A model generated the notes under the pieces. The model was not told the DNA's origin and ran no database searches. It saw only the letters and a list, made by a program, of their open reading frames with translations. 64,000 nt of DNA from NCBI GenBank assembly GCA_963696935.1, contig CAVOMB010000056.1:3331-67330 (forward strand), read 5' to 3'. Source of the stretch: an uncultured Thermoleophilia bacterium (GTDB taxonomy: Bacteria > Actinomycetota > Thermoleophilia > UBA2241). Positions 40,119-62,463 of the stretch are shown here, one piece after another; position 1 is the stretch's first letter, and each line of letters begins with the position of its first letter. The position numbers were made by a program, and so were the translations under genes.

Positions 40119-40888
40119 GTGAGCGGCTCCAGCAGCGACTCCGACTCGCCCCTGGCGAACACGATGACGAGGATGCCGGCGTGCTCCACGCGAACGTAGC
40201 GCAGGCCGTCGGTGAGGAGGCTGAAGCAGAGCGCCGTGTACACGAGGCCGCTGATGATGACGATCCAGACGTCAGGCCAGGTGAGCAAGTACCCGCTGGC
40301 GACCGTCTGCCAGACGGCCAGCGGGGGAACAGGATGACGGACCCTGCGCAGTAGAGAAGCGCGAAGGTGGAGCCACGCACGCCGGCATCGCTCATGCTGC
40401 CGACGAGCATGATCGCCGTGGCGAACATGAGGCCGGCCAGCAGGCCGAAGACGGCGCCGGGGACGGGGACGGGGACGGCGCCGCGTGCGCAGCGCCCACG
40501 GCGCCAGCACCGCGACCCACACCGGCGCCATGTACTCGAGCGACACGCCGACGGTGACGTTCGAGGTCCGGATGGAGGCGAAGTAGAAGATCATCTCCAG
40601 TGCGACGACGAACCCGAGCACGACCATGCGGCGGATGCGGCCCGACCGGCGGACCTCATCGACACCGCCGGTAAGGAAGAAGAGCGCCGCAAGCGCGATG
40701 CCGGCCAGCCCCATCCTCAAAACGAGGAACAGGCTGGCCGGCATGGTCGAGATCTGGGTGAGCGTCGCCGAGGTGCCGAGGATCAGCGACGACGCGCCGA
40801 TCTCCGCGTACCCGCGGAGGCGGTGATCGGCTCCCGTGAGGGCCGCGTCCCCCGGCGCGGCTCTCGTTGACTCGCCGTCACCCGTCAA
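40115..40888 (-). pseudogene. EamA/DMT-family permease, paralog 5, disrupted (two frame changes plus internal deletions)
   Basis: The N-terminal half is intact up to ...YMAPVWVAVLAPWAL. The frame is lost at the GGGGAC x3 hexamer repeat (about 40461-40480). The middle helices (GAVFGLLAGLMFATAIMLVG...CAGSVILFP) read in another frame. The frame is regained at a C5 run (about 40330). About 35 aa before the C-terminus are missing relative to the paralogs. Confidence 0.7.
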
Positions 40889-42672
40889 TCGCTTGCGAAG
40901 CCCATCCGGCCCGAGAACACCTCGAGGAAGCGCTTGTCGGTGGCGAGGTCCAAGAACTCGATACGGTCCCGCACCTTGGCCATCCTGTCTCTGGCTTTCA
41001 CGTCGATGAGCGCCATCTGCGCGCCCACGCCGGCGGCGTTGCCCACGAACGCGACGCGCTCGGTCTCTACGGGCGGGAACAGGCCGAGGTACTGCGCCGC
41101 GGCCAGGTCGAGGTAGTTGCCGAACGCCCCGGCGATGTACACGGTGTCGAGCTCTTCGAGAGGGACGTCGAGGCTCTGCATGAGCAGCTCCCAGCCCGCG
41201 TGGATGGCGCCCTTGGCGAGCTGCAGACTGCGCACGTCGTGCTGGGTGAAGACGATGTCGCCGTGCGGGCCCTCGGTGAGCAGGTACTCCCAGCCCTCCT
41301 CGCCCTTGCGCACGCGCGGGTGCTTGGAGTTCATGCGGCCGCTCTTCTCGACCACGCCGGCGTGCACGAGACCGGCGAGCAGGTCGACGACACCCGAGCC
41401 GCAGATGCCGATGGGCTCTTCGCCGGCGATAGTGACGATGTCGGTGGCTTCGCCATCGGGAGTGATCTTGACGCGCTCGATGGCGCCGGCGACGGCCTTC
41501 ATGCCGTTGCGGATCTGGTAGCCCTCGAACGCGGGGCCGGACGCGCAGCTCGTCACGGTGACGCGGCCGTCGTGCGCCAGCGCGATCTCCGTGTTGGTAC
41601 CGATGTCGATGGCCATGCTCGGCTTCTTCTTGTCGGCGAGGTGCGTGGCCGCGACCACGGCGAGAGCGTCCGAGCCGACGAACCCGGCGATGGGCGGGGG
41701 GAAGTGCACGCCGCCGTCGGGGTTCATGTGGATGCCGAGCTCGCTCGCCTTGAACGTGAGGGGCTCGGCGGCGGCAGGCGCGAACGGGGCCTGGCCGAGG
41801 CCGACGGGAGACAGGCCAAGCGCCAGGTGATGCATGGCGGTGTTGCCGACCACGGTCATGTCGTAGACGTGATTGACGTGGATGTCCTGACGCTCGTACA
41901 GCGCCTTGAGGTTGGTGTTGACGCCCTCGCGGACGGCCGAGGCCAGCAGAGCCGTCTCGTTGTGCTGGGAGGCGTGAGCGATGCGGCTGATGACGTCCTC
42001 ACCGTAGCGCATCTGCGGGTTCTCGATGGCCTCCTGGTCGATGAGGGCGCCACGGCGCAGATCGAACAGGTAGGCGATGACCTTGGAGGTGCCGATGTCG
42101 ACGGCCACCCCGTAGCACTCGCAATCTCGCTGGCCCGGATGGACGTCGATGACGCGCTTGCCGTAGGTGGTCGCGGTGACCCGCCACTTACCGTCGCGCA
42201 GCGTCGACGGCAGCTCCTTGAGCACGTGCAGCGGGACCTCGACGCCGCCGAGGGCCTGGTCGAACCGCTCCAGGTCCGAGCGCTTGTCGGCCAGCGTCGG
42301 CGGCTCGAGCTGGATCGACCTCGTGGCAACGACCGGGTGTGCGGCGCCGTGCGTGAGCTGCGACGTCGTCAGGATCCGTCGCTGACCGGCGGTGCCGCGC
42401 ACCTCGATGCTGACGCGCGCGGAGCGCGGGTGGGCCTGGCACGCGAGACGCCAGCCCTCGTCGCGCAGCTTCTCCGGGATGCGCTTGAGCTCGCGCTCGG
42501 TGGGTGCCGTCAGCTCTCCGGAGCCCAGACGGACAAGGCACTTGCCGCAGGTACCGCGGCCGGCGCAGTCGGTGGGGATATCGATCTGGGCACGGATGAG
42601 ACCCTTGAGCAGGTTGTCCTGCTCCTCGACGGTCAGGGTCAATCCGATGGGCTCGACAAAGACTTTCGGCAC
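40885..42672 (-). CDS. RamA/RACo-like corrinoid reductive activase (N-terminal 2Fe-2S ferredoxin + ASKHA ATPase domain)
   Basis: GTG 42672 follows AAGGAG. Plant-type ferredoxin Cys motif CAGRGTCGKCLV...C. ASKHA blocks: GVAVDIGTSKV, MAIDIGTNTEIAL, GICGSGVVD, YIAGAFGNY. Confidence 0.8.
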   Translation of the reverse strand: MPKVFVEPIGLTLTVEEQDNLLKGLIRAQIDIPTDCAGRGTCGKCLVRLGSGELTAPTERELKRIPEKLRDEGWRLACQAHPRSARVSIEVRGTAGQRRILTTSQLTHGAAHPVVATRSIQLEPPTLADKRSDLERFDQALGGVEVPLHVLKELPSTLRDGKWRVTATTYGKRVIDVHPGQRDCECYGVAVDIGTSKVIAYLFDLRRGALIDQEAIENPQMRYGEDVISRIAHASQHNETALLASAVREGVNTNLKALYERQDIHVNHVYDMTVVGNTAMHHLALGLSPVGLGQAPFAPAAAEPLTFKASELGIHMNPDGGVHFPPPIAGFVGSDALAVVAATHLADKKKPSMAIDIGTNTEIALAHDGRVTVTSCASGPAFEGYQIRNGMKAVAGAIERVKITPDGEATDIVTIAGEEPIGICGSGVVDLLAGLVHAGVVEKSGRMNSKHPRVRKGEEGWEYLLTEGPHGDIVFTQHDVRSLQLAKGAIHAGWELLMQSLDVPLEELDTVYIAGAFGNYLDLAAAQYLGLFPPVETERVAFVGNAAGVGAQMALIDVKARDRMAKVRDRIEFLDLATDKRFLEVFSGRMGFASD

Positions 42673-42803
42673 GTTTGCTCCTTGCGTTCCGTGAGGACGG
42701 GCGGGCGGCTCTTCCGGCCGCCCGCCCCACCGGCGCACTCTGCCGCGCCGGAGGTCCCCCCGGTCCTACCCCACAGGCTCCGCAGTCAGACCCCGGGGGG
42801 CCC

Positions 42804-45693: not shown

Positions 45694-47126
45694 CGGCTGC
45701 TCCTCTCTGCCTCGGCGAGCACGGCCTGTAGCCGGTCGCGGATCGTCTGGTCCAGCGCGAACGCGCGCGGCTCCTCGCGCAGCTCCTGCGCGCGTGCGGC
45801 CACTCGTTCCTTGAGCGTCGTCGCGCCCGCGGCCGCCCAGCGGTCGTGCGTGGCGCGGTCGAGCAACCGCGGCTGCCAGGTCTCGCGGTGGTGCTTGCGC
45901 GTGTAGCCTCGGCCCAGGTGACTGCCGCCGGGGCCGACCGCGTCGATCTCGTTCAGCGCCAGCGCCTCGTCATCGACACCCACCTCGACCAGCAGCGCTC
46001 GCGCGAACCCCACGAGCTCGTCGCCGAGGACGATGGTCTCGTAGCTGCTCTGCAGACCGCTCTCCAGATAACCGACGTCGTGCAGCAGCGTGGCGCGGCT
46101 GAGCGCGCCGAGCACCGCCGTCATCCCGGCCTCGGCAGCCCACTGCTCGTCGAAGTTCTTGGCGTCCGCGACCGCTGCGTAGGCGAAGCTCGGAAGCCCG
46201 TAGAAGCGCGCCAGGTCGGTGGCCGCGGCGTTGCCGAGGAAGTGCTCGGGCGCGCCGTACACGTCGACAGCCGTGCGCATGTCGAACGCCCCGCAGCCGA
46301 CACCGTAGACGAACGGCGCGCCGGTCCGGCGGAGCTGGTGCACGACGAGGCCGCTCAGCGTCTCGGCGTTGCCGACGACGATGGTCGCCGTCATGGAGGC
46401 CGGCGCCGTGGTGCCCATGGCCGGCGCCGGCGCGTAGATCAGCGGGATGTCCAGGTCGGCGCAGGCGAGGACCTTGTCCAGCGCCTCCTCGCTGTGGATG
46501 AGCGGCGGATTGGGCATGGCATAGCAGCCGAAGCTCCGCGCCTCGCCGCACATGGCCGCCATGTCCTTCATGCGGCGCAGAGCGACTCCGTCATGCGCCG
46601 TGGTCAGCAGCGGCTTGCGCGTGCCGGCCAGCATGGCCGCGAACTGGGCGAGGTCGCCGATCTCCGCCGGGACGTCGTCCGGCAGGCCCATGCTCATCAC
46701 GAAGTCGAGGTTGGGCAGCTTCTCGGCCAAGGCGGCCATGCCCTCGACGTCGGTGGTGGTGCTCCGGCGGCGCTCGCCGGTGTCGGGGTCGGTGACGAAC
46801 ACACAGTCCGATCCCGTGCCGAAGTAGTTGCGACCGTCCGCCAGCTCGAGCCCGCCGAGCTCGCCGCGGCGTGCGTGGCCCTCGCCGCCCGTGGCGCCGC
46901 GCTCCTTGAGCTTGAAGTGGCGCGGCGCGCCCTGCAGGGCGGCGTCCACCAAGGCCGCCGGGATGCGGGCGCGCGTCCCTTCGACGCGCGCGCCCGCCTC
47001 CGCCAGCAGCTCGCGACTGCCGGCGTGGCGGACCTCCACGCCGGTCTCCTCGAGCAGCGCGAGCGTCGCCTGGTGCACGCGCCAGCAGGCGGCGTCGTCC
47101 CAGACGATGAGGCGAGCGGCGGGCAT
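45690..47126 (-). CDS. MttB-superfamily methyltransferase, non-Pyl (type with YFGTGSD / LPNLDFVMSMGLP)
   Basis: 478 aa, full-length family architecture. Val at the position aligned with the TAG of 51799-53268 (...SFAYAAVADAKNFDEQ...). Confidence 0.85.
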   Translation of the reverse strand: MPAARLIVWDDAACWRVHQATLALLEETGVEVRHAGSRELLAEAGARVEGTRARIPAALVDAALQGAPRHFKLKERGATGGEGHARRGELGGLELADGRNYFGTGSDCVFVTDPDTGERRRSTTTDVEGMAALAEKLPNLDFVMSMGLPDDVPAEIGDLAQFAAMLAGTRKPLLTTAHDGVALRRMKDMAAMCGEARSFGCYAMPNPPLIHSEEALDKVLACADLDIPLIYAPAPAMGTTAPASMTATIVVGNAETLSGLVVHQLRRTGAPFVYGVGCGAFDMRTAVDVYGAPEHFLGNAAATDLARFYGLPSFAYAAVADAKNFDEQWAAEAGMTAVLGALSRATLLHDVGYLESGLQSSYETIVLGDELVGFARALLVEVGVDDEALALNEIDAVGPGGSHLGRGYTRKHHRETWQPRLLDRATHDRWAAAGATTLKERVAARAQELREEPRAFALDQTIRDRLQAVLAEAERSSR

Positions 47127-47148: not shown

Positions 47149-48615
47149 TCAGGCCCCCGCCATCTCCTTGTCGGCGCGCTCGACGATCGCGCGCAGCTCC
47201 GCGACGACGTCGTCCGGCAGCGGCTCGGGCTTGTAGTTCGCCAGGATGTCGTCGGCGATCTCCGTCGCCTTCTCCAGGGCGCCCTTCTTACCCTCGCGCA
47301 GCCAGATGTCGTAGGGGGTGCGGTCCCAGACGCTCGGGCGCCAGATCTCCTTCATGTGCCGGCGCGTGTGCTTCTGCGACAGGTACGTGCCGTTCGGACC
47401 GACGCTCTTGATCACGTCGAGCGCTAGCGTCTCGTCGTCCACTTCGATGCCGCCGGCGACCTTCTGGACGATGCCGTAGATCTCGGTCTCCATGACCATG
47501 TGCGGGTAGCTGAGGATCTTGGAGCCGTTCAGCAGCCCGGCGCCGTTCATCATGTCCGCGTTGGTCATCACGCTGGCGAAGGTGCTGAGCGAATCGTCGA
47601 TAGCCGCCTGCCAGTCGGGCTCCTTGGCGCCGGTGGCCATGGTGCCCATCGCCATCGGCACGCCGTAGAAATGGGCCAGCTGGGTGGACGCGCCGGCGAG
47701 CAGGTAATCCTCGGGCGAGCCGCCGGTGTAGCCGCCGGTCTTGAGGTCGATGACGCTCGGAGCGCCGGCGAAGAAGGCCGGCACGCCGGGAAAAGCCAGC
47801 TCGAGAAGCACGACGCCACTGAGGGCCTCGGCGTTCTGGACGACAAGGTTGCCGGCGAGCGTCGCCGGGCCGGTGCCGGCCGCGAGCGGCATGGGCATGA
47901 AGCCGCTCGCGAGCCCGTGCTCGGCGGCCACGAGGTTGGCCTCGAGGTTCGGGCCGTCGTGCGCGAGCGGGTCCACGGCGCACTGCATGAAGCTGAGGAT
48001 CGGCCGCTCGCGCAGCTTCTCCGCACCGCCGACGATGGCGGCCGCCATCTCGACGAGATAGCGTGCGGGCTTCTCGCCGACGGTGGTCACCGTCTGGAAG
48101 TGCTTGCTGGTGTTGGTGAACACTGCCTCGGCGTCGTGCAGCGCCTTGGTGGCCGACGGCACGTCCTGGCTGGTGACCACCGGGCCCCAGTAGTAGCTGA
48201 TGCTGGGCAGCGCGTCGACGAAGCGGGCGCTGGTCGCCGCGTCGGCCTTGGTGCTCGGCCGCTTCTCGCCCGTCTTGTGGTCGAAGACGAACACGCCGGA
48301 GCCGTCATTGCTCAGATAGCAGTGCTTGCCGTCGATGAGCATGTCGCAGGCGGGGTCGCGGCCGGCAAGCACGTAGCTGTCCGGCACCTGGGAGACGGCC
48401 TCCATGACGATCGCCCGCGGCATCCTGGCGGCCTGCGTGGCGCGGTCGACCTCGCAACCGCTCTTCTCGAGCACCTCGAGGGCGCGCGCACTGGGGAAGC
48501 GCACGCCGACCGTCTCCAGCACGTCGAGGGTGGCCTCGTGGATGCGCTCGAGCTCGCTGGCGCTCAGTACGTCCCACCAGAGCTTGGGGGCGATGGGATT
48601 GATTCGGGATGTCAT
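47149..48615 (-). CDS. MttB-superfamily methyltransferase, non-Pyl (type with YLSNDGSGV)
   Basis: 488 aa. ...GTMATGAKEPDWQA... at the Pyl-aligned block. C-terminal YLSQKHTRRHMKEIWRPSVWDR. Confidence 0.85.
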   Translation of the reverse strand: MTSRINPIAPKLWWDVLSASELERIHEATLDVLETVGVRFPSARALEVLEKSGCEVDRATQAARMPRAIVMEAVSQVPDSYVLAGRDPACDMLIDGKHCYLSNDGSGVFVFDHKTGEKRPSTKADAATSARFVDALPSISYYWGPVVTSQDVPSATKALHDAEAVFTNTSKHFQTVTTVGEKPARYLVEMAAAIVGGAEKLRERPILSFMQCAVDPLAHDGPNLEANLVAAEHGLASGFMPMPLAAGTGPATLAGNLVVQNAEALSGVVLLELAFPGVPAFFAGAPSVIDLKTGGYTGGSPEDYLLAGASTQLAHFYGVPMAMGTMATGAKEPDWQAAIDDSLSTFASVMTNADMMNGAGLLNGSKILSYPHMVMETEIYGIVQKVAGGIEVDDETLALDVIKSVGPNGTYLSQKHTRRHMKEIWRPSVWDRTPYDIWLREGKKGALEKATEIADDILANYKPEPLPDDVVAELRAIVERADKEMAGA

Positions 48616-48799
48616 TGCGGCAACCTCGCAGGGGTCCGTCGACGACAGGTCAGGTGAAGTCGGGCAACGGGCGGGCGGGCGCGGTGATGCTCAGAGAGAG
48701 CCCGTCCGCGGGGAGCGGAAGGGCTTACAGGCCGCAGGAGCGGTTGATGGTGCTGATGCTGATTTTCGCTGCGTCCGGCACGGGCCGAATCCTATCACC

Positions 48800-48866: not shown

Positions 48867-48867
48867 C

Positions 48868-50280
48868 TCACGTACCGGGACGGTGGGCCTCGACGTCCGC
48901 GAGGATAGCGTCGAGGCCCGTGCCCACGGCATCCGGCAGCTCGAAGGCGCGCGGCTCGGAGCGCAGCTCCGCGACCCGCGCCTGGAGCCGGTCGAGCAGC
49001 GTCTGCGCCCCGTCCGCCTGCCACGCGTCGTGGCGGGTCGTGTCGAAGAAGTCGCTCTGCCAGATGCTGCGGAAGTGCTTGCGTGTGTAGGGCCGGGCCA
49101 AGTGGTTGCCGCCCGGCCCCGCCGCCTTGATCTCGTCCAGGGCCAGCGCCTCGTCGTCCACGGGCAGCGGCGCCATGAACGCCTTGGCCCAGCCGAGCAG
49201 GTGGTCGCCGAACACGATCGACTCGTAGCTGCTCTGCAGGCCGCACTCGAGGTAGCCCACGTCGTGCAGCAGCGTGCCGCGGCTGAGCTTGCCGAGCATG
49301 GCGGTCAGCGCCGCCTCCGCACTCCACTGCTGGTCGAGCATCTTGCTGTCGGTGTGCGCCGCATAGGCGAAGCTGGGCAGGTCGTACCAGCGCGCGAGAT
49401 CGGTCTGGGCCTGGTGGCCGCGGAAGACGTCCGCCGACGAGTAGACCTCGTTCATCGTCTTCATGTTCATCGCGCCGACACCGACGCCCCAGACGAACGG
49501 CGCACCCGGCTTGACCGCCTGGCTCAGGACGAGGCCGGCGAGGACCTCGGCGTTGGCGACCACGATCACGGCGGCGACGCTGGCCGGCGCCGTGCTGCCC
49601 GCGTTCGGCGCCGGCGCCCAGACCACGGGGATGCCGAGCTCGGCGCAGGCGATCACCTTGCTGGCGCCGTCCTCGTCGAAGAGCAGCGGCGGCACGGGCA
49701 TCGCGTAGATGGCGAAGCTGTCGCGCTCGCCGGCCAGCGCCGCCATCTCCTGCAGCTTCGGCAGGATGTGGCCGTCGCGCGGCGCGACGATCAGCGGCTT
49801 GCGCGTGCCGCGCAGCATGGCGTCGACCTGGACGAGGTCGTCGACGGCCTGCGGCGCGTCCTCGGGCAGGCCCATGCTCATCACGAAATCAATGTTGGGC
49901 AGCTTCTCGCAGAGCGCCGCCATGCCCTCCACGTCGGCCCGCCGGACCCGGCGGCGCTGCCGGGTGTCAGGGTCGCGGACGTAGAGAACGTCCGACCCGG
50001 TGCCACAGTACGTGTGGCCGGCGTCGAGGACGATAGGCTCCGTGTCGCCGCCGCGCGGCTTGATCGTCCAGTCGCGCGGCGCGCTCTTGAGGGCCACCTC
50101 GACGAGGTCCGCCGGGATGCGCACACGCGTCCCGTCGATTTGCGCGCCGGCTGCGGAGAAGATCTCGACCGCCGGCGCGTAGTGCACGTCGATACCCGTC
50201 TCGACGAGCACCTCGAGCGTCGCCTCGTGCACGCGCCGGCAGGCGACGTCGTCCCAGATGGTCAGGCGAGCAGCGTCCAC
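48868..50280 (-). CDS. MttB-superfamily methyltransferase, non-Pyl (paralog of 45690-47126)
   Basis: 470 aa. GTG follows AAGGAG. YCGTGSD, LPNIDFVMSMGLP, ...SFAYAAHTDSKMLDQQ... Confidence 0.85.
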   Translation of the reverse strand: MDAARLTIWDDVACRRVHEATLEVLVETGIDVHYAPAVEIFSAAGAQIDGTRVRIPADLVEVALKSAPRDWTIKPRGGDTEPIVLDAGHTYCGTGSDVLYVRDPDTRQRRRVRRADVEGMAALCEKLPNIDFVMSMGLPEDAPQAVDDLVQVDAMLRGTRKPLIVAPRDGHILPKLQEMAALAGERDSFAIYAMPVPPLLFDEDGASKVIACAELGIPVVWAPAPNAGSTAPASVAAVIVVANAEVLAGLVLSQAVKPGAPFVWGVGVGAMNMKTMNEVYSSADVFRGHQAQTDLARWYDLPSFAYAAHTDSKMLDQQWSAEAALTAMLGKLSRGTLLHDVGYLECGLQSSYESIVFGDHLLGWAKAFMAPLPVDDEALALDEIKAAGPGGNHLARPYTRKHFRSIWQSDFFDTTRHDAWQADGAQTLLDRLQARVAELRSEPRAFELPDAVGTGLDAILADVEAHRPGT

Positions 50281-50398
50281 GAGCTTCTCCTTCGTTCGGC
50301 GCCGACGGAAGGCCGCTCGCCGGGCGCGTGATCGTCAACGGCCACCGTCGCCGCTGGCGACGGGTCTTTCGGGTCTTTCTTTGACGTCACGGGTACCG

Positions 50399-50770
50399 CT
50401 ATTCGTCGTCGCCCCCGGGGCCGCACACCGCTTCGGGTGCCTGCGGCGCCATCCCGACCTTGGCGCCGCGAAGCATGCCCACGAGCTCTACCCGGTTCAG
50501 CCCCTTGAACATCCAGCCGAGCCACCGGAACAGGTCCATCTCCGCGATGATGGCCCCCTGGATGGCCATCAACTGGGCGTCGTCGGAATGCCGCCATGTC
50601 GCCGGCAGGACCAGGGCCTCTTCCTGGGGCAGGTGCTGGAAGTACAGTGCGACCAGTTCGTTGAACCGGCAGTTCGCGTTTGCGCCCGCCTGGATGCGAA
50701 CCTCCCCATCCGCGACGCGCACCTGCCGGCGCGCGTCGTCCGCGACGTCCAGCAGCCCCACCGGTCCCAC
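50399..50770 (-). CDS. Hypothetical protein (about 120 aa)
   Basis: A GGAGGTG RBS is followed by alternative GTG starts at 50770/50761. High GC3. No confident motif. Confidence 0.4.
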   Translation of the reverse strand: MGPVGLLDVADDARRQVRVADGEVRIQAGANANCRFNELVALYFQHLPQEEALVLPATWRHSDDAQLMAIQGAIIAEMDLFRWLGWMFKGLNRVELVGMLRGAKVGMAPQAPEAVCGPGGDDE

Positions 50771-50863
50771 CTCCGTGTCGAGTCCCCCTTTTGAAGGGTT
50801 GTTCCTCGACGAAGGGCGGATCGGCGCGTCGTCGTTGCCGCCCCGGCCCGGGCGGGGGCGCGC

Positions 50864-51517
50864 TCAGATCCAGAAGCCCGGCGGCTCCGCGAGGTCCGGA
50901 TGCTCGCGCTCGAATGCGAGTGCGTCATCGAGTGTGCGCACCCAGTCGTAGTAGACGCCCTTGCAGTGGACGAGCTCGACGCCGAGGTCGCGGAGGCGGG
51001 CGAGGCCGTAGGCCTGTGCGCCCGCCGGAGAGTACACGGCATCCGCGGCCACGACGACGCGATAGCCGGCCTCGGCGAGGCCGACCGCCGAGTGGGTCAC
51101 GCACACATCGGTCTCGAAGCCGCAGAGCACGGCCGTCCTGCGGCCGGTCGCCGCGATCGCCGCCATGATGTCCGGGCAGGCGGCGGCGCCGAACACCGGC
51201 TTGGTGAAGATGGGCGCTCTCCGGTCGACGGCCAGCAGCACTCCCACCGCCGTCGGCCCGTTCCGCTCCGGGCTCTCCTCGGTGAGCACGACGGGCACGT
51301 CGAGAGCCATGGCCGCGCCGGCCAGCCAGGCGGCTCGCGCCACTGCTCTGCTCACCTCGGCGGCGTCGTCCTTGTCGAGCCTGTCGCTCCAGAACTTGGG
51401 CTGCAGGTCGATCACGACCAGAAGCGAGTCGTCACGGTCGATGAGGGGCACGGTCGCCTCCACGGCGTCGACGGGTTGCCGGGCGGCGGCCGCTGCGATG
51501 CGACCGCTGCCCGGCAC
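50864..51517 (-). CDS. Isochorismatase-family cysteine hydrolase (amidase type)
   Basis: D-K-C triad context: LLVVIDLQ, IFTKPVFGA, VLCGFETDVCVTHSA. The start is uncertain (GTG 51517 or 51463). The upstream part of the listed ORF looks non-coding. Confidence 0.7.
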   Translation of the reverse strand: MPGSGRIAAAAARQPVDAVEATVPLIDRDDSLLVVIDLQPKFWSDRLDKDDAAEVSRAVARAAWLAGAAMALDVPVVLTEESPERNGPTAVGVLLAVDRRAPIFTKPVFGAAACPDIMAAIAATGRRTAVLCGFETDVCVTHSAVGLAEAGYRVVVAADAVYSPAGAQAYGLARLRDLGVELVHCKGVYYDWVRTLDDALAFEREHPDLAEPPGFWI

Positions 51518-51798
51518 GATATCACCGCCGCCGTCCGGGCCGGCGTGTGGCCCCGAGACCCGCCAACTTGGGCGAACTTCGCAGATGCATCGGACCGCCC
51601 GCGACGGACTGCTCGGCGAAGTTGGACGCTCGAGCCGGCCACGCTTTACTCGCGCGCGCCCCGCCGATACCCTCGGTCTCTGCGAGCGGCGGGGCGCTCC
51701 CCGCGACCACGCCTGTGAGGCCGGGCGGCTCTTGACGGCTTCGCCTCGCCCGTCGTCTCGCCGGCCGTGACTCATCGCGTGGCAGCGGAGGTGCTCCA

Positions 51799-53268
51799 GT
51801 GAAGCGAAACCTGCACGCCGGGCGGCCCAGCTCGGGCGGGCTCAGCCTGAACGTGTTCACGGAGGCTGAGCTCAACGACGTCCACCTCGGCTCGCTCGAG
51901 ATCCTCGAACGCACCGGGATGTGGGTCGAGGCCGACGATGCGCTCGACATCTTCAGCGATGGTGGCTGCATCGTGGACCGCGAGACGCGCATGGTCCGCA
52001 TCCCGCCACACCTGGTGGAGGAGGCAATCCGATCCGCTCCACCCAAGAGCTTCCTGAACGGGCGAGACCCCGACCAGGACATCGTGCTCGAGGCCGGGCG
52101 CGTCTACGTCTCCAACTTCGACGAGGGCATCATGATCGTCGACGCGCGTACCGGCGAGTACCGCCACCCCGTGCTGGAGGATGTGCACGAGGCGGCTCGC
52201 CTGGTCGACGCCCTCAGCGACATCGACACCTACGAGTCGGCGGTGCACCCGGGCGACGTCCCCGAGGAGACGGCGAGCCTCCGCAAGTGGTGGGCGGCGA
52301 CCCAGAACACGGGCAAGCCAGTCGGCACCGAGGCGACGAGCGCCTACGACTGTCGCAGACTGATCGAGATGGCCACGGTGGTCGCGGGCGGCGAGGATGA
52401 GTTCCGCCGCCGCCCGCTCATCGGCTTCGGCGTCTGCCCGGTGAGCCCGCTCAAGCTGCCGCGCGACGCCACCGAGGTGATCATCGAGTCGGCGCGCGCC
52501 TGGTGCCCGGACACGATCCTCAGCATGGCGATGTCCGGAGGATCCTCCCCAGTCACTCTCGCCGGCACGCTGGTGCTGCACAACGCCGAGGTGCTCAGCG
52601 GCATCGTGCTGGCGCAGCTCGTCGAGCGCGGCTGCCCCTGCACCTACGGGTCGTCCACGACGGCCATGGACCTGAAGCTGGCGGCGGCGTGTGTGGGCTC
52701 GCCGGAGCTCGCCCTCTTCTCCGCCGCCTGCGCCCAGATCGCCCGTCACTACCTGCTGCCAAGCTTCGTGGCCGGGTTGTAGAGCGATTCCAAGCTCGGT
52801 GACGCGCAGACCGGTCACGAGAAGACCCTCACCGGACTCCTTCCTGCGTTGGCAGGCGCCAACCAGATCTACGGTGCGGGGATGATCGAATCGGGCGTCA
52901 CCTTCGACCTTGGCCAGCTGGTCATGGACAACGAGATCGCGCGGATGATCAAGTTCGCCGTCGGCGGCATCGCGGTCACCGACGAGACCATGGCGATCGA
53001 CGACATCGCCAAGGTGGGCGCGTTCGGCGACTTCCTCTCGCTGGACGCCACGCTCAAGCACATGCGCGAGCTCAGTCAGCCGGCAGTGCTCGACCGCCGC
53101 GTGCGTGAGGACTGGGAGAGCAGAGGGGCGACCGACCTCGCCTCCCGCTCGCGCGCCCGGGCGCTGGAGCTTGTAGAGTCTCATCAGCCGGCGCCCGTCG
53201 ACCCCGACGTGGCCGAAGAGGTTCGCCACATCATTGCAGCGGCAGACCGTGAGAAAGGCGTGGCATGA
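51799..53268 (+). CDS. mttB: Trimethylamine:corrinoid methyltransferase MttB with an in-frame TAG (52780-52782) at the pyrrolysine position
   Basis: GTG 51799 follows GGAGGT. Listed ORFs 51799-52782 and 52849-53268 are in the same frame and separated only by one TAG. The merged product is 489 aa, with context ...HYLLPSFVAGL-TAG-SDSKLGDAQTGHEKT... The stop overlaps the mttC start (ATGA). Confidence 0.7.
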
Positions 53269-53891
53269 AAGACCAGCTCAAGCAGTCCATCATCGACGGC
53301 AACGAGGGCGTGGCCACGGCCATGACGTCCGCGCTGCTCGCTACCGGGGCCAGCCCCCGTGAGATCCTCGACGAGGGCCTGCTCCCCGGCATGGAGGTGG
53401 TGGGCGCGCGCATGCGCGAGGGCGAGTGCTTCATCCCCGAGGTGCTGCTCTCCGCCCGCGTCATGCAGGCCTGCCTCGACCTGCTGCGCCCGCACATGGC
53501 GGCCGGCGACTCGGCCGGCATGGGCACCGTCGTGATCGGCACCGTCGAGGGCGACCTGCACGACATCGGCAAGAACCTCGTGGGCATGCTCCTGCAGGGC
53601 GCCGGCTTCACGGTCGTCAACCTCGGCACCGGGGTGACCAGCGCCGACTTCGTCGCCGCGGTCAGAGAGCACTCCCCGCAGATCATCGGCATGAGCGCCC
53701 TGCTCACCACCACCCTGCCGCACATGAGCGAGACCATCGCCCTGCTCAAGGGCGCGGGCCTGCGGGACTCGGTCAAGGTGATGGTCGGCGGCGCCCCCGT
53801 GACCGCCGCCTACGCCGAGGAGATCGGCGCCGACGGCTACGGCGCCAACGCCGGCATGGCGGTGGAGCGGGCGAAGGAGTTGGTGGGGTAG
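53265..53891 (+). CDS. mttC: Corrinoid (cobalamin-binding) methyltransferase partner protein, MttC-like
   Basis: 208 aa. An N-terminal helical cap is followed by a B12-binding Rossmann domain with the DxHxxG motif (GDLHDIGKNLV) and ...IGMSALLTTT... It ends with tandem TAG TAG. Confidence 0.85.
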   Translation: MKDQLKQSIIDGNEGVATAMTSALLATGASPREILDEGLLPGMEVVGARMREGECFIPEVLLSARVMQACLDLLRPHMAAGDSAGMGTVVIGTVEGDLHDIGKNLVGMLLQGAGFTVVNLGTGVTSADFVAAVREHSPQIIGMSALLTTTLPHMSETIALLKGAGLRDSVKVMVGGAPVTAAYAEEIGADGYGANAGMAVERAKELVG

Positions 53892-53923
53892 TAGGCTCAC
53901 ACCGTCCAGTCCCGGGAGGGCTC

Positions 53924-55285: not shown

Positions 55286-55343
55286 GTGAGATGCGGCGGC
55301 GGCCGGCCGCGAATCCGCTACCGTCTCCGTGCGCACGGCCCGT

Positions 55344-55786: not shown

Positions 55787-55844
55787 CGCGGTCAAAGCTC
55801 CACGGGCCGCCGGTGCCGGTGTCCCACCGGGTCGCGCTCGCCGC

Positions 55845-57326
55845 TCACGCCGTGACCCCGGCGAGTTCCAAGTCGGCAGCCGCGACGAGCCGCCGCAACT
55901 CCAGGCTCACGTCGTCGGGGAGGGGAGCGGGCGCGTGCGTCCGCAAGATCTCACGCGCCCGCTCCTCAGCGTTCTCGAGCGCTCCCTTCTTGCCCCCGAC
56001 GAACCAGGCGTCGTAGGGCGTCCGGTCCCACACCCCCGGCCGCCAGATCTCTCCCATGTGCCGGCGTGTGTGCTTCTCCGCCAGGTACGCGCCCTTCGAT
56101 CCGACCTTCTTGATCACGTCGAGTGCCAGCGTCTCGTCGTCCACCACGATGCCGCCGGCGACCTCCTGCATGATGCCGTAGATCTCGGTCTCCATGACCA
56201 GGTGCGCGTAGCTCAGGGTCTTCGATCCGTCGAGCAGACCGCAGCCGCTCATCATCTCTGCACCCGCGCCCACGCCGGCGAGCGTCGAGAGCGCATCGTC
56301 AACGGCGGCCTGCCAGCCCGGCTCCTTGGCGCCGCTCGCCATGGTGCCTATGTTCATGGCGAAGCCGAAGTGGTGCGCGAGCTCGGTGGCGGCGGCAGCC
56401 AGGACGTAGTCCTCAGGGCTGCCGCCGGTGTAGCCGCCCGTCTTGAGGTCCATCACGGAGGGCGCGCCGGCCAGGAAAACGGGCGCGCCTGGATGCGCGA
56501 GTTGCACGAGGACCATGCCCGCGAGGACGGCGGCCATGTTGACGACGAGGTTGCCGGCCAGCGTCGCAGGCGCGGACGCACATGCGAGCGTCAGCGAGAG
56601 GAAGCCGACGGGGACGCCGGCCTCGGCACAGACCAGCGCCGCCTCGAGGCTCACCGCCTCGTTGCCCAGCGGGTCGATCGGGCAGGCGATCAGGCTCATG
56701 ATGGGCCGGCGGCGGAGCTCTTCGTCCCCGCCGGCCACGACGCGCGCCATCTCGACCACGCGGCGGGTCATGTCCTCGCCCACCACGTCCACCGCCTGGA
56801 AGTGCTTCGTGGTGTTGGCGAAGATCGCCGCGGCCTCGTGCACGGGCCGCGCGGCGACGGGCACGTCCTCGGCCGTCACGACCGGGCCCCAGTAGAAGCT
56901 CACCTGCGGGAGGGCGTCGACGAAGCGGGCAGACTCTGCCACGTCGGCGATCCCGCTCGCGCGCAGCTCACCGCTGTGCGGGTCGATGACACGGACGCCG
57001 CAGCCGTCGTTGCTCAAGTGGCAGGCGGAGCCGTCCAGCCGGATGTCGCAGCGGGGGTCGCGGGCGGCGAGAAGCGGCACCTTGTGCGCCGCCTGCAGCG
57101 CCGCCCGGACGACGTCCCGCGGCAGGAGCGCGATCTGCGATGCGCGGTCGACGCGGCAGCCGCCTCGTTCGAGCGCGTCGAGCGCGCGCTCCAGCGGGAA
57201 GCGCACGCCGACCTCGGCCAAGGTCTCGAGGATCGCCTCCTCGAGCCGCTCCACGTCCGCTGCGCTGAGCACGTCCCAGCGCAAGCGCGGCCGGATGGGG
57301 TCGATCCTTGCTACCGCCTCAGCCAT
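55845..57326 (-). CDS. MttB-superfamily methyltransferase, non-Pyl (paralog of 47149-48615)
   Basis: ATG 57326 follows AGGAGGAG. 493 aa. HLSNDGCGV, ...GTMASGAKEPGWQA..., YLAEKHTRRHMGEIWRPGVWDR. Confidence 0.85.
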   Translation of the reverse strand: MAEAVARIDPIRPRLRWDVLSAADVERLEEAILETLAEVGVRFPLERALDALERGGCRVDRASQIALLPRDVVRAALQAAHKVPLLAARDPRCDIRLDGSACHLSNDGCGVRVIDPHSGELRASGIADVAESARFVDALPQVSFYWGPVVTAEDVPVAARPVHEAAAIFANTTKHFQAVDVVGEDMTRRVVEMARVVAGGDEELRRRPIMSLIACPIDPLGNEAVSLEAALVCAEAGVPVGFLSLTLACASAPATLAGNLVVNMAAVLAGMVLVQLAHPGAPVFLAGAPSVMDLKTGGYTGGSPEDYVLAAAATELAHHFGFAMNIGTMASGAKEPGWQAAVDDALSTLAGVGAGAEMMSGCGLLDGSKTLSYAHLVMETEIYGIMQEVAGGIVVDDETLALDVIKKVGSKGAYLAEKHTRRHMGEIWRPGVWDRTPYDAWFVGGKKGALENAEERAREILRTHAPAPLPDDVSLELRRLVAAADLELAGVTA

Positions 57327-60999: not shown

Positions 61000-62379
61000 T
61001 CAGTCGATGGAGGCCAGACGACGCAGCCCCGCATCGACCGCGGGCTCGAGCGCAGGCGGGCGATGCGAGGCGGCAGTGCGCGCGACCCGCTCGTGCGCTC
61101 TGTCGATCGCGGTCTCCCGCCCGCTGGCGGTCCACTGGCGCATCGGCATGTCGACCGCGAGGGTCGGCCCGGCGGCGGGGTCGGCGTGCCCGCCGGCCGA
61201 ACCGCCGGCGGCAGTGAGGTCGACGCCCGCGGCTATCGCCCGCGCATGCGAGAGGGCCTCTACCCCTAGCGCCATCTCCTCGTAGCTGAAGATGCGGCCG
61301 CCCGAGACCATGCCGACACCGGTCAGCATGTCCACGCCGGCAGCCAGCGAGAGCCAGGTGGTGGTGGTGTCGTCCAGCGCCGACTGCCAGCTCGGCTCCT
61401 TGGCGCCGCTGGAGTTGACCCCGCACTGGGTCGGCAGGCCGTAGAAGTGGCCCACGTCGCCGACGGCGGCAGCCATGATGGTGTCCTCGGGAGCCCCGCC
61501 TGTGAAGTCGCCGCTCTTGAGATCCATCACGCTCGGGATGAAGCAGATGAACACAGGTGCACCCGGGAACGCCGCCTGGATCACGCACACGGAACTGAGG
61601 GCCTCGGCGATGCCGACCACGAGCGAGCCGGCCATGGTGATCGGCGTCGTCGAGCCGCCCATCGGCATCGTCACGAAGCCGATGGGAATGCCGGCCTCGG
61701 CGAAGACCAGGCCGGCTTCGAGCGTGCCGGCGTCGTTGCCGAGCGGCGTGACGGTGCCGAGCAGGGCGCTGATCGGCGGCTCGGCGCGGAGCTTCTCGTT
61801 CGAGCCGCTCACCGCCAGCGCCATCTTCACGGCGACCTCGGCTAGGTCGGGCTCCACGACCGTCACCGTCTGCACGTGCTTGCCGGTGTTGGCGATGGCC
61901 AGGTACAACTCGTGCAGCCCGCGGACCTCAACCGGCCGGTCCTGCGCGCTGACGGCCGGCCAGCAGAAGTCGACCTCGGGCATGGCGTCGACGACGCGGC
62001 TGATGGTCGCGACGTCTTCGGCCGTCGTGCCACGCTTCTGGCCGGTCTCGAGATCGTAGATCTCCACACAGCAACCGTCGGTGGTGAGCAGCGAGCCGGT
62101 GCCGGTGACGATGGGCGCCCCCGCGCGAGCGCCCAGCGTCATGCGCGCCGGTGCCAGGCCGACCAGCCGGCGCACGAGCTCCCGCGGCAGCGTGACGCGC
62201 GCGCCGTCGGCGGTGGCGCCCTGCGCCACCAGGGCGGCGCGCGCCCGCTCACACGGGATGGAAACGCCGGTATCGGCGAGTACGTCGAGTGCCGCCTCGT
62301 CGAGGCGCTGAAGGTCATGCTCCGAGAGGATGGCCAGTCGCCCGGCCGAGCCGATCGTGTGGGTGAGGCTCTGCGTCAT
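61000..62379 (-). CDS. MttB-superfamily methyltransferase, non-Pyl, with a divergent C-terminus
   Basis: 459 aa. LLTTDGCCV, ...QCGVNSSGAKEPSWQS... The usual C-terminal HTRRH...W.P block is replaced by unrelated sequence. Confidence 0.75.
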   Translation of the reverse strand: MTQSLTHTIGSAGRLAILSEHDLQRLDEAALDVLADTGVSIPCERARAALVAQGATADGARVTLPRELVRRLVGLAPARMTLGARAGAPIVTGTGSLLTTDGCCVEIYDLETGQKRGTTAEDVATISRVVDAMPEVDFCWPAVSAQDRPVEVRGLHELYLAIANTGKHVQTVTVVEPDLAEVAVKMALAVSGSNEKLRAEPPISALLGTVTPLGNDAGTLEAGLVFAEAGIPIGFVTMPMGGSTTPITMAGSLVVGIAEALSSVCVIQAAFPGAPVFICFIPSVMDLKSGDFTGGAPEDTIMAAAVGDVGHFYGLPTQCGVNSSGAKEPSWQSALDDTTTTWLSLAAGVDMLTGVGMVSGGRIFSYEEMALGVEALSHARAIAAGVDLTAAGGSAGGHADPAAGPTLAVDMPMRQWTASGRETAIDRAHERVARTAASHRPPALEPAVDAGLRRLASID

Positions 62380-62463
62380 CGTCGCGCTCCACTTCGTCCG
62401 CTGGTTCTCACTTGGACGGCCGGGGCGCTCCCGTCCGTCGGTACTCGGTTCTCCATCACGTCC

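What the first reader, a model, noticed from the sequence alone, without database searches (positions are those of the whole stretch)
51799..53268. In-frame TAG at the pyrrolysine position of a trimethylamine methyltransferase in a high-GC bacterium
From GTG 51799 (RBS GGAGGT) the frame is interrupted only by TAG 52780-52782. It resumes immediately in the same frame (52849 minus 51799 is 1050 nt, or 350 codons) and runs to a TGA that overlaps the start of a DxHxxG corrinoid protein. The merged protein is 489 aa with the TAG at codon 328, in the context ...HYLLPSFVAGL-TAG-SDSKLGDAQTGHEKT... As I recall, Methanosarcina MttB is ~495 aa with pyrrolysine at residue 334, in this same conserved block. 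The six TAG-free paralogs in this window carry V, H, A, A, S or T at the aligned column (YAAV-ADAK, YAAH-TDSK, GTMA-TGAK, GTMA-SGAK, GVNS-SGAK, LRT-TSHE), as non-Pyl MttB homologs do. There are caveats. TAG also terminates at least ten ordinary genes here (for example 15302, 25758, 27693, 30709, 34801, 39177, 57502, 58508). No pylT or pylSBCD is visible in the 64 kb. The window also contains real frameshift pseudogenes.
Basis: partly seen in the sequence, partly recalled or inferred. Interest (0 to 1): 0.8.

Follow-up and report, generated by a model that had tools for sequence, protein, structure and literature searches.

The report
Pyrrolysine-encoding mttB in a Thermoleophilia bacterium
The in-frame TAG is real and is almost certainly a pyrrolysine codon in a trimethylamine methyltransferase gene of a high-GC Thermoleophilia actinobacterium, a group whose use of this 22nd amino acid I found in only one passing published count and in database annotation.

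Summary
GTG 51799 to TGA 53268 is one frame, broken only by TAG 52780-52782 at codon 328.

- **Identity:** the merged 489-aa protein is a full-length MttB. It scores 655.9 bits on NCBIfam TIGR02369 (cut-off 525).
- **Position:** the TAG aligns exactly with Pyl334 of the solved Methanosarcina barkeri MttB.
- **Conservation:** all 61 related copies fetched (58-97% identical, mostly Thermoleophilia MAGs) carry TAG at this column, never TGA, TAA or a sense codon. Their true terminal stops vary.
- **Downstream half:** the 161 codons after the TAG stay open and under purifying selection (dN/dS 0.11-0.36).
- **Machinery:** no pyl genes lie in the window. Sixteen MAGs carry both a TAG-mttB and pylSc, including ones with MttB 88-95% identical to this one. 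Where enough of the contig was fetched, pylSc sits in a conserved locus with pylSn, tRNA-Pyl(CUA) and pylBCD.
- **TAG usage:** TAG is still about 24% of ordinary stops, so decoding must be ambiguous or regulated.

Verdict: a genuine new member of a known kind. Three extras are worth follow-up:
- a strong synonymous-constraint zone in the 45 codons after the UAG;
- an invariant rare TTG codon just before the UAG;
- Asp-Glu in place of the reportedly invariant Gly110-Thr111.

The parts
51787..51792 (+). Shine-Dalgarno-like GGAGGT, 6 nt upstream of the GTG start of mttB
   Evidence: Read directly from the sequence.
51799..52779 (+). mttB codons 1-327, the part gene callers report as a 327-aa protein
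   Evidence: More than 70 database relatives are exactly 327 aa.
52780..52782 (+). In-frame TAG, codon 328, inferred to be a pyrrolysine codon. It is preceded by the rare Leu codon TTG.
   Evidence: It aligns with Pyl334 of M. barkeri MttB (PDB 7xcl). TAG is present in 61 of 61 related copies. TTG precedes it in every copy with Leu at position 327.
52783..53268 (+). mttB codons 329-489 plus the TGA stop. This part carries Tyr358 (M. barkeri Tyr364) and Gly366 (M. barkeri Gly372), and, by alignment, the end of the TIM barrel and the dimerisation loop.
   Evidence: The frame stays open for about 161 codons in relatives. dN/dS is 0.11-0.36 in 20 pairwise comparisons. Domain boundaries are taken from PMC9842639.
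52783..52917 (+). Synonymous-constraint zone, codons 329-373, directly 3' of the UAG. It is a candidate cis element for UAG read-through, but its function is not shown.
   Evidence: Synonymous codon entropy is 0.30-0.36 here against a gene mean of 0.70. All 12 lowest 20-codon windows lie in codons 326-373. Mann-Whitney p = 3.6e-6, permutation 0 of 20000, and invariant 4/6-fold codons are 6 of 26 here against 3 of 214 elsewhere.
52811..52835 (+). Predicted hairpin 1, CCGGUCACGAGAAGACCCUCACCGG
   Evidence: 93-99% of cells are paired, but the pairs hardly vary, so the structure is neither supported nor refuted.
52844..52866 (+). Predicted hairpin 2, CUGCGUUGGC-AGGC-GCCAACCAG. It is built from the rare codons TTG and GCA, and the third position in its loop varies freely.
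   Evidence: Four pairs show changes on both sides. One is a doubly synonymous G-C to A-U change in L061, and another is U-A to C-G in 7 sequences. The covariation score is 0.078 against 0.041 for shuffles (0 of 500 reach it). Six sequences have a C·A mismatch.
53265..53891 (+). mttC-like cognate corrinoid protein, 208 aa. Its start overlaps the mttB stop (ATGA) and it ends in TAG.
   Evidence: Pfam B12-binding_2 plus B12-binding. It carries the DxHxxG motif. E is 2.8e-47 against M. barkeri MttC (7xcn) and 2.1e-60 against PDB 1y80, a predicted cobalamin-binding protein. It falls below the cut-offs of all substrate-specific NCBIfam corrinoid models.
40885..42690 (-). RACo-type reductive activator of corrinoid proteins (2Fe-2S ferredoxin plus ASKHA domain)
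   Evidence: Pfam Fer2, RACo_linker, Raco_middle and RACo_C_ter.
47164..48615 (-). TAG-free MttB-superfamily paralog, Ala at the Pyl column
   Evidence: TIGR02369 scores 464 bits, below the 525 cut-off.
55866..57323 (-). TAG-free MttB-superfamily paralog, Ala at the Pyl column
45705..47126 (-). TAG-free MttB-superfamily paralog, Val at the Pyl column
   Evidence: TIGR02369 scores 305 bits, below the 525 cut-off.
48886..50280 (-). TAG-free MttB-superfamily paralog, His at the Pyl column
61015..62382 (-). TAG-free MttB-superfamily paralog, Ser at the Pyl column

Best explanation
This is a functional mttB gene, encoding trimethylamine:corrinoid methyltransferase, in a Thermoleophilia (Actinomycetota) bacterium. 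Codon 328, UAG, is read as pyrrolysine.

Inferred mechanism:
- Elsewhere in the genome, a pyl locus supplies the decoding machinery. It encodes the split synthetase PylSc and PylSn, tRNA-Pyl(CUA), and PylB, PylC and PylD, which make pyrrolysine from lysine.
- Pyl-tRNA(CUA) competes with release factor 1 at this UAG, giving the full 489-aa TIM-barrel enzyme.
- As in the M. barkeri enzyme, the pyrroline ring of Pyl328 would bind and activate trimethylamine. Tyr358 would assist, and the methyl group would pass to Co(I) of the corrinoid protein encoded by the overlapping downstream gene (53265-53891).
- The RACo-type activase (40885-42690) would re-reduce that corrinoid when it becomes oxidised.

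Shown here: the gene anatomy, the homology, the exact Pyl column, TAG conservation, purifying selection on the downstream half, and a complete pyl locus in same-lineage genomes.

Inferred: that this genome has the pyl locus, that Pyl is actually inserted, and that the substrate is trimethylamine.

Because TAG is not avoided as a stop in this lineage, insertion must be either competitive or conditional. The low synonymous variation in the 45 codons after the UAG, and the invariant rare TTG before it, may help read-through. That is a hypothesis only.
For: **Gene and protein**
- One frame with a single TAG.
- Full-length Pfam MTTB match.
- TIGR02369 equivalog at 655.9 bits against a cut-off of 525. 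The window's TAG-free paralogs score 464 and 305 and fail.
- The best PDB hit is M. barkeri MttB, E 1.5e-113, against 1e-65 for the non-Pyl MtgB. The TAG sits on Pyl334.
- Tyr364, Met249 and Gly372 of the M. barkeri active site are conserved as Tyr358, Met243 and Gly366.

**Conservation of the TAG**
- More than 70 database relatives at 65-93% identity are all exactly 327 aa.
- All 61 copies in fetched loci carry TAG at the column, followed by about 161 open codons. Their terminal stops are TGA, TAA or TAG.
- Downstream dN/dS is 0.11-0.36 in 20 pairs.
- The 22 codons between the TAG and the first possible restart codon are the most conserved stretch of the family.

**Pyl machinery in the lineage**
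- One scan of species-representative genomes returned TAG-mttB and pylSc from the same MAG in 16 cases.
- In nine of these pairs the MttB N-terminal part is 88-95% identical to the window's and the fetched pyl locus holds pylSc, pylSn, tRNA-Pyl, pylD, pylC and pylB: L011/L080, L015/L076, L017/L072, L018/L082, L019/L078, L023/L087, L026/L069, L029/L083 and L059/L073.
- The pyl locus is conserved, 68-73% GC in all but one locus (L051, 58%), and contains tRNA-Pyl with a CUA anticodon.
- In L080 all five Pyl proteins exceed the NCBIfam equivalog cut-offs.
- L011, from the same MAG as L080, is syntenic with window 43367-53860 at about 87% nucleotide identity.

**Other Pyl-type genes in relatives**
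- A dimethylamine methyltransferase gene (mtbB) has an in-frame TAG in 8 of 8 copies. The one tested passes TIGR02368.
- A second mttB copy in L001 also has the TAG.
Against: - No pyl gene or tRNA-Pyl lies in the 64 kb. The rest of this genome could not be reached: its MttC protein is not in the gene-position collection that encoding-contig searches, and the closest genome found shares only 84-91% nucleotide identity.
- TAG is about 24% of ordinary stops, with no enrichment of nearby backup stops. Unregulated Pyl insertion would therefore extend many proteins.
- Gly110-Thr111 of M. barkeri MttB forms a cis peptide, and Gly110 is reported as 100% conserved in 66 Pyl-MttBs (PMC9842639). It aligns with Asp108-Glu109 here.
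- Close TAG-free homologues (50-56% identical; Leu, Trp, Ser or Val at the column) exist, and the one tested (P0042) also passes TIGR02369. The model alone therefore does not prove Pyl dependence.
- The corrinoid protein does not reach any substrate-specific family cut-off.
- There is no proteomic or enzymatic evidence.
Confidence: 0.88

Rival explanations
1. The pyl machinery is absent or silent in this particular genome. In that case the UAG either terminates translation, leaving a relic gene, or is read through at a low level by a near-cognate canonical tRNA.
For: No pyl genes in the window. The genome could not be examined.
Against: The gene is intact over all 489 codons and its downstream half is under purifying selection even against the closest relatives (dN/dS 0.13-0.14 against L009 and L010). 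Sixteen of the 22 MAGs returned with pylSc also had a TAG-mttB. The pyl locus sits among housekeeping genes in conserved synteny, which argues for stable inheritance in the clade.
Confidence: 0.07
2. The gene encodes two separate polypeptides that assemble: a 327-aa piece ending at the TAG and a C-terminal piece restarted at TTG 52849. No read-through would be needed.
For: The ORF finder lists a TTG-initiated 139-aa ORF in frame. TTG at that codon is conserved in 35 of 48 distinct sequences.
Against: The 22 codons between the TAG and that TTG contain no start codon, yet they encode SDSKLGDAQTGHEKT, the most conserved block of the family, shared even with M. barkeri. Thirteen of 48 sequences have CTG instead of TTG. 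There is no Shine-Dalgarno sequence before it. The stop is always TAG, never TGA or TAA, which a simple split would not require.
Confidence: 0.03
3. The TAG is a sequencing or assembly error, or a recent inactivating nonsense mutation, making this a pseudogene.
For: The window and its relatives do contain frameshifted genes. Examples are a degenerate MttB copy at 44335-44967 and a frameshifted paralog in L001.
Against: The same TAG occurs at the same codon in 61 of 61 copies from many separate MAG and metagenome assemblies, spanning 58-97% identity. The downstream frame is intact and selected.
Confidence: 0.02

Closest known systems
Methanosarcina barkeri MttB, the pyrrolysine-containing trimethylamine:corrinoid methyltransferase (PDB 7XCL, 7XCM, 7XCN; PMC9842639)
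   Same: - 43% identity over the full length, E 1.5e-113.
- UAG at the exact Pyl334 column.
- Tyr364, Met249 and Gly372 conserved.
- An adjacent cognate corrinoid protein with the DxHxxG motif.
   Different: - The host is bacterial, high-GC and actinobacterial.
- The Gly110-Thr111 cis-peptide position is Asp108-Glu109.
- Glu225, the salt-bridge partner of MttC, is Lys219 here.
- The methyl acceptor downstream is presumably tetrahydrofolate rather than coenzyme M. That is inference, as no MT2 gene was identified in the window.
Bacterial pyrrolysine systems with a split synthetase, such as Desulfitobacterium hafniense and Acetohalobium arabaticum (pylSc plus pylSn, pylBCD, pylT)
   Same: - The same-lineage MAGs have separate pylSc and pylSn genes, pylB, pylC, pylD and a tRNA-Pyl(CUA). 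All five proteins exceed the NCBIfam equivalog cut-offs.
- PylSc is about 53% identical to its Desulfitobacterium relatives.
- TAG remains an ordinary stop, as, to my knowledge, in those bacteria.
   Different: - The phylum is Actinomycetota. Guo et al. 2022 (PMC9630628) counted only two Actinobacteria among 81 bacterial PylRS genomes.
- The locus layout differs. pylSc follows and overlaps an amidase_3 gene, pylSn is divergent, and pylB-pylC-pylD-pylT sit on the other strand among housekeeping genes (cysS, gltX, leuBCD, gatB), not next to mttB.
Non-pyrrolysine MttB-superfamily methyltransferases, such as the glycine betaine enzyme MtgB (PDB 2QNE)
   Same: The same fold and Pfam family. Seven such copies, five full-length and two partial, lie in this window next to the TAG gene.
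   Different: - They carry a sense codon at the Pyl column (A, A, V, H, S).
- They lack Tyr at the Tyr364 column.
- They score below the TIGR02369 cut-off and are only 26-35% identical to the TAG gene.
PYLIS, the stem-loop proposed downstream of the UAG of Methanosarcina mtmB1
   Same: A region directly 3' of the Pyl UAG has unusually low synonymous variation and predicted hairpins.
   Different: - The gene family is different (mttB, not mtmB).
- The better-supported hairpin starts 64 nt after the UAG.
- Covariation support is thin.
- PYLIS itself is, to my knowledge, not essential for Pyl insertion, and such structures are not found in all Pyl genes (PMC3639795, abstract).

Membership tests
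Pyrrolysine-dependent trimethylamine:corrinoid methyltransferase (MttB, TIGR02369 / PF06253) | Full-length match to the family model above the curated cut-off | tested here: met
   TIGR02369 scores 655.9 bits against a cut-off of 525. Pfam MTTB matches residues 17-483 to profile positions 31-496 of 500.
Pyrrolysine-dependent trimethylamine:corrinoid methyltransferase (MttB, TIGR02369 / PF06253) | In-frame UAG at the column of Pyl334 of the solved enzyme | tested here: met
   Pairwise phmmer against 7xcl and 7xcm and a MAFFT alignment. TAG is conserved in 61 of 61 copies.
Pyrrolysine-dependent trimethylamine:corrinoid methyltransferase (MttB, TIGR02369 / PF06253) | Active-site residues Tyr364, Met249 and Gly372 (PMC9842639) | tested here: met
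   They align with Tyr358, Met243 and Gly366.
Pyrrolysine-dependent trimethylamine:corrinoid methyltransferase (MttB, TIGR02369 / PF06253) | The Gly110-Thr111 cis peptide, with Gly110 reported as 100% conserved in 66 Pyl-MttBs | tested here: not met
   It aligns with Asp108-Glu109. The motif [SCT]NFDEGI[MK] is conserved in all seven MttB sequences of alignment A1, and NFDEG is invariant in them. The sister TAG-free clade has [FY]GEG. In M. barkeri only the backbone carbonyl and N-H of these residues are used, so function may be kept, but this is a real departure.
Pyrrolysine-dependent trimethylamine:corrinoid methyltransferase (MttB, TIGR02369 / PF06253) | An adjacent cognate corrinoid protein (MttC) with the DxHxxG cobalt ligand motif | tested here: met
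   The gene at 53265-53891 overlaps the mttB stop. It has the Pfam B12-binding domains and D97-x-H99-x-x-G102, and scores E 2.8e-47 against M. barkeri MttC. It is below the substrate-specific NCBIfam cut-offs.
Pyrrolysine-dependent trimethylamine:corrinoid methyltransferase (MttB, TIGR02369 / PF06253) | Trimethylamine-dependent methylation of the corrinoid protein (enzyme activity) | not testable with these tools
   This needs a biochemical assay.
Pyrrolysine-decoding organism (pylT, pylS, pylB, pylC, pylD) | tRNA-Pyl(CUA) and the PylS, PylB, PylC and PylD genes in the same genome | tested here: inconclusive
   They are absent from the 64-kb window, and the rest of the genome was not available. 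pylSc co-occurs with a TAG-mttB in 16 same-lineage MAGs. The full set is seen in nine pairs whose MttB is 88-95% identical to this one.
Pyrrolysine-decoding organism (pylT, pylS, pylB, pylC, pylD) | Pyrrolysine detected at the UAG position in the protein | not testable with these tools
   This needs mass spectrometry of a peptide spanning residue 328.
PYLIS-like recoding element | A conserved RNA structure 3' of the UAG, supported by compensatory changes | tested here: inconclusive
   Synonymous constraint is strong. Hairpin 1 does not vary. Hairpin 2 has four pairs with changes on both sides but also six C·A mismatches.

The most novel reading that the evidence does not exclude
Thermoleophilia from soils, peat and freshwater sediments may be a large, essentially undescribed reservoir of pyrrolysine-decoding bacteria. 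They keep UAG as a common stop (about 24%). They may steer Pyl insertion at mttB through a cis-acting mRNA signal, made up of the invariant rare TTG codon before the UAG and the 45-codon synonymous-constraint zone with its hairpins after it. Their MttB would also work with a changed active-site loop, Asp-Glu in place of the 'invariant' Gly110-Thr111.
Probability: 0.3. Interest if true: 0.75.

Novelty: new member of a known kind. Interest (0 to 1): 0.6.

Why it matters
Pyrrolysine is the rarest natural expansion of the genetic code. In bacteria it has been documented mainly in Firmicutes and Deltaproteobacteria. Actinobacteria appear only as two genomes in one survey (PMC9630628), and I found no paper in the library searched that describes Pyl in Thermoleophilia.

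What this locus and its relatives add:
- A whole high-GC actinobacterial clade, recovered mostly as MAGs whose names suggest soil, mire, lake and sediment samples, carries Pyl-type mttB and mtbB genes together with a conserved pyl locus.
- This affects gene calling, because these genes are stored as 327-aa fragments in public protein sets.
- It affects estimates of which organisms consume trimethylamine and dimethylamine, and so compete with methylotrophic methanogens.
- It adds new, diverged PylRS/tRNA-Pyl pairs to those usable for genetic code expansion.
- Ambiguous UAG use combined with a sharply localised synonymous-constraint zone makes the old question of whether Pyl insertion uses an mRNA signal directly testable in a new system.

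Tried and rejected
1. **Looking for the window's own genome.** An exact look-up of its MttC protein found nothing. The nearest genome shares only 84-91% nucleotide identity. The pyl genes of this exact genome therefore could not be checked.
2. **Searching with D. hafniense PylSc.** It returned only Firmicutes in the top 120. The route that worked was the 50%-representative library, picking a representative with high-GC amino-acid composition, and then its contigs.
3. **Linking MttB and PylSc by equal contig lengths or by cluster accessions.** This gave no link. The link came from one genome scan with a chimeric MttB-N plus PylSc alignment.
4. **Other Pyl-type genes in the window.** No mtbB homologue is present. 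The other in-frame TAG junctions at 34801 and 39177 are simply adjacent genes in the same frame, and the one at 10792 is an antisense artefact.
5. **A nearby backup stop after TAG-terminated genes.** None was found.
6. **Structure prediction.** Not run, because the alignment to the solved structure already answers the question.
7. **Literature.** No paper describing Pyl in Thermoleophilia was found in the library. No supplementary files of Guo et al. 2022 are held in the library, so which two Actinobacteria they found is unknown.
Full report
**1. The observation**

The sequence is as described. GTG 51799, preceded by GGAGGT at 51787-51792, opens a frame that runs to TGA 53266-53268. Its only interruption is TAG 52780-52782, at codon 328. 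The merged product is 489 aa. The TGA overlaps the ATG of a 208-aa corrinoid protein (53265-53891) with B12-binding domains and a D97-x-H99-x-x-G102 motif.

The merged protein matches Pfam MTTB from end to end. It scores 655.9 bits on the NCBIfam equivalog model TIGR02369, '[trimethylamine--corrinoid protein] Co-methyltransferase', whose cut-off is 525. Two TAG-free paralogs from the same window score 464 and 305 and fail.

**2. Position of the TAG**

Against all PDB sequences the best hit is M. barkeri MttB (7xcl, 7xcm) at E 1.5e-113. The non-pyrrolysine glycine betaine enzyme MtgB scores about 1e-65.

The TAG falls exactly on residue 334. That residue is written X in the native entry and K in the entry with Lys at 334. 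The local contexts are LPSFVAGL-x-SDSKLGDAQTGHEKT here and LPSYVAGS-x-SDAKVPDDQAGHEKT in M. barkeri. A MAFFT alignment gives the same column.

For the sixth, degenerate copy, an ungapped tblastn alignment puts R rather than T at the column.

According to the structure paper (PMC9842639), the TIM barrel spans residues 82-395, followed by a dimerisation loop at 396-452. A product ending at residue 327 would therefore lack the end of the barrel, Tyr364 and the dimer interface.

**3. Is the stop accidental?**

No.
- A search of 5.8 billion proteins found more than 70 relatives at 65-93% identity that are all exactly 327 aa long. Gene callers stop at the same codon in all of them.
- In DNA fetched from relatives, all 61 copies (58-97% identity in the N-terminal part) have TAG at this column, never TGA, TAA or a sense codon.
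- The frame then stays open for about 161 codons. The exceptions are three loci that end early and three copies cut short by a premature stop, presumably frameshifts.
- The real terminal stop varies among TGA, TAA and TAG.
- The downstream half is under purifying selection. dN/dS is 0.11-0.36 in 20 comparisons with the window, similar to the upstream half.

This rules out an assembly error or a recent nonsense mutation. It also argues against a split two-polypeptide enzyme, because the 22 codons between the TAG and the first possible restart codon are the most conserved block of the family.

**4. Who is it?**

The window has an actinobacterial flavour: a UPF0182 protein, PIM-type glycosyltransferases and 64-75% GC in 2-kb windows.
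- The closest protein cluster contains an NCBI entry named Thermoleophilia bacterium.
- In a scan of one genome per species, most of the 80 loci returned carry titles of Thermoleophilia MAGs, and the rest are titled Actinomycetes or Actinomycetota bacterium. Their names suggest soil, mire, lake and sediment projects.
- The nearest locus, L009 (CAVZIA010000005.1), has an MttB N-terminal part 97% identical to the window's. It is syntenic with window 44410-60728 at 87-91% nucleotide identity in the main blocks. That is a close relative, not the same genome.

**5. Is the pyrrolysine machinery there?**

It is not in the window. The only tRNAs are Asp and Val, and no ORF resembles a pyl gene. I therefore looked for it in the lineage.
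- Starting from D. hafniense PylSc (verified against PDB), the 50%-identity representative library has only 202 relatives.
- One representative with a high-GC amino-acid composition (P0242) lies on 68%-GC contigs. These carry pylSc, a 109-aa pylSn, tRNA-Pyl with a CUA anticodon, and pylD, pylC and pylB, all embedded among housekeeping genes.
- Its relatives are named 'pyrrolysine--tRNA(Pyl) ligase large subunit [Thermoleophilia bacterium]' by NCBI.

A single scan with a chimeric MttB-N plus PylSc alignment then returned both gene types from the same MAGs in 16 cases.
- In nine of these pairs the MttB N-terminal part is 88-95% identical to the window's and the fetched locus holds the full pyl set. 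Among them are CAIYOD (95%), CAVXJO (93.6%), CAWAUK (92.7%), CAVXRL (92.4%), JAAZAR (91.7%) and CAVOGK (90.8%); CAVXXF, CAVQXS and CAVPXV complete the nine.
- The other seven pairs have truncated pyl loci or more distant MttB copies.
- In CAIYOD (L080) all five proteins exceed their NCBIfam equivalog cut-offs:

| Protein | Score (bits) | Cut-off (bits) |
|---|---|---|
| PylSc | 319.6 | 178 |
| PylSn | 129.9 | 51 |
| PylD | 198.1 | 150 |
| PylC | 354.2 | 248 |
| PylB | 439.2 | 348 |

- tRNA-Pyl lies at L080:6924-6996.
- The mtt locus of that MAG (L011) is syntenic with the window at about 87% nucleotide identity.
- Relatives also carry dimethylamine methyltransferase genes (mtbB) with an in-frame TAG in 8 of 8 copies, one of them right beside pylSc, and second TAG-mttB copies. 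The mtbB tested passes TIGR02368.

**6. Mechanism and its limits**

The best reading is ordinary Pyl biology. Pyl-tRNA(CUA) decodes UAG 328, and the pyrroline ring activates trimethylamine. The methyl group goes to the Co(I) corrinoid protein encoded next door, and a RACo-type activase (40885-42690) repairs oxidised corrinoid.

By crude gene calling, TAG ends about 24% of ordinary genes in these loci, with no nearby backup stops. UAG is therefore ambiguous. This matches what is reported for methanogens (PMC12626013, abstract) and, to my knowledge, for bacterial Pyl users in which the pyl genes are induced by trimethylamine.

Insertion of Pyl, the substrate, and the presence of pyl genes in this exact genome are inferred, not shown.

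**7. Departures and things noticed**

(a) *Active-site loop.* Gly110-Thr111 of M. barkeri MttB forms a cis peptide whose backbone holds the water bound to Pyl and contacts the corrinoid. Gly110 is stated to be 100% conserved in 66 Pyl-MttBs (PMC9842639). It aligns with Asp108-Glu109 here, within an NFDEG motif that is invariant in the seven MttB sequences aligned. TAG-free sister proteins have [FY]GEG.

(b) *Synonymous constraint.* Variation is sharply reduced in codons 329-373, right after the UAG.
- Codon entropy is 0.30-0.36 against a gene mean of 0.70, and all 12 lowest windows lie there.
- The equally conserved SMAMSGGSSPV block shows entropy near 1.0, so amino-acid conservation does not explain it.
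- Mann-Whitney p = 3.6e-6, permutation 0 of 20000, and invariant 4/6-fold codons are 6 of 26 against 3 of 214.
- Rare T- or A-ending codons (GGT, TTG, GCA) are fixed in a genome with about 90% GC at third positions.

(c) *Predicted hairpins.* Two are predicted. The one at 52844-52866 has four pairs with changes on both sides, including a doubly synonymous G-C to A-U change, but also six C·A mismatches. The one at 52811-52835 does not vary. This is suggestive of a PYLIS-like signal, not proof.

(d) *Codon before the UAG.* It is the rare TTG in every copy with Leu at position 327, and in 5 of 8 mtbB genes.

**8. Known or new?**

Pyl-encoding mttB in bacteria is a known kind. Guo et al. 2022 counted two Actinobacteria among 81 bacterial PylRS genomes, and NCBI already names PylS in Thermoleophilia MAGs. 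I found no paper describing Pyl use in Thermoleophilia.

The finding is therefore a new, well-supported member of a known kind. It shows that an entire high-GC clade has the trait, and it comes with a testable recoding-signal lead.

Noticed in passing
window 52783-52917 (codons 329-373 of mttB): Synonymous variation is lowest in the whole gene directly after the UAG, with codon entropy about 0.3 against a mean of 0.7 across 37 orthologues. Rare codons (GGT, TTG, GCA) are fixed there. This points to selection on the mRNA, possibly a read-through signal.
   Followed up: partly
window 52777-52779, and the same position in L001-L077: The codon before the UAG is TTG, a rare Leu codon at about 90% GC3, in every copy that has Leu at position 327. 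It is also TTG in 5 of 8 mtbB genes of relatives. The shared context is UUG-UAG-G.
   Followed up: partly
window 52120-52125 (Asp108-Glu109 of MttB): The Gly110-Thr111 cis-peptide position of M. barkeri MttB is Asp-Glu here. It is also Asp-Glu in the six relatives from this TAG clade that I aligned. Gly110 is reported as 100% conserved in Pyl-MttBs.
   Followed up: partly
L003:8919-15581, L080:1624-10159 and about 20 other loci: The Thermoleophilia pyl locus has a conserved layout: amidase_3, then pylSc (starts overlapping in L003), a variable insert, divergent pylSn, a Germane/Gmad2 lipoprotein, tRNA-Pyl, and pylD-pylC-pylB. In L003 to L008 it sits among cysS, gltX, leuBCD and gatB. The conserved layout suggests vertical inheritance. 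In L080 the insert holds a corrinoid protein and a radical SAM gene, and in L079 it holds a TAG-containing mtbB.
   Followed up: partly
P0042, P0045, P0049, P0058, P0062, P0092, P0094, P0097 (database proteins): These full-length TAG-free homologues are 47-56% identical to the window's MttB. They carry Leu, Val, Trp or Ser at the Pyl column and keep Tyr or Phe at the Tyr364 column. P0042, the one tested, also passes TIGR02369 (681.9 bits). They may be MttB-like enzymes that replaced Pyl, and their substrate is unknown.
   Followed up: no
window 22-582, 44335-50280, 55866-57323, 61015-62382: Seven TAG-free MttB-superfamily copies, five full-length and two partial, are packed around the Pyl-type gene. 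With them are a RACo activase, a corrinoid protein and an amino-acid ABC transporter (57502-60731). This looks like a methylated-amine or quaternary-amine demethylation island.
   Followed up: partly
window 34798-34803 and 39174-39179 (minus strand): Two gene pairs are joined in the same frame by a single TAG: aminotransferase then BKACE, and two EamA-type transporters. If UAG is read as Pyl, fusion proteins would be made. The arrangement is probably incidental.
   Followed up: no
window 33967-36162 and 42804-44468: A lysine 2,3-aminomutase (KamA-type), a BKACE beta-keto acid cleavage enzyme and class-III aminotransferases lie near the methyltransferase island. This is a lysine or beta-lysine degradation set. 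No link to Pyl synthesis was shown.
   Followed up: no
window 15302-25858 (minus strand): A run of very large Thr/Ser/Gly-rich secreted proteins with N-terminal pseudopilin-like hydrophobic segments. It looks like a type IV pilus or Tad-like cluster, with lower GC (64-67%) than the rest of the window.
   Followed up: no
window 59808-60731 and 44335-45690; L001:6308-7721: Apparent frameshifted or degenerate genes: a solute-binding protein whose C-terminal part goes out of frame, a truncated MttB copy, and a frameshifted paralog in L001. These could be pseudogenes or sequencing indel errors.
   Followed up: no
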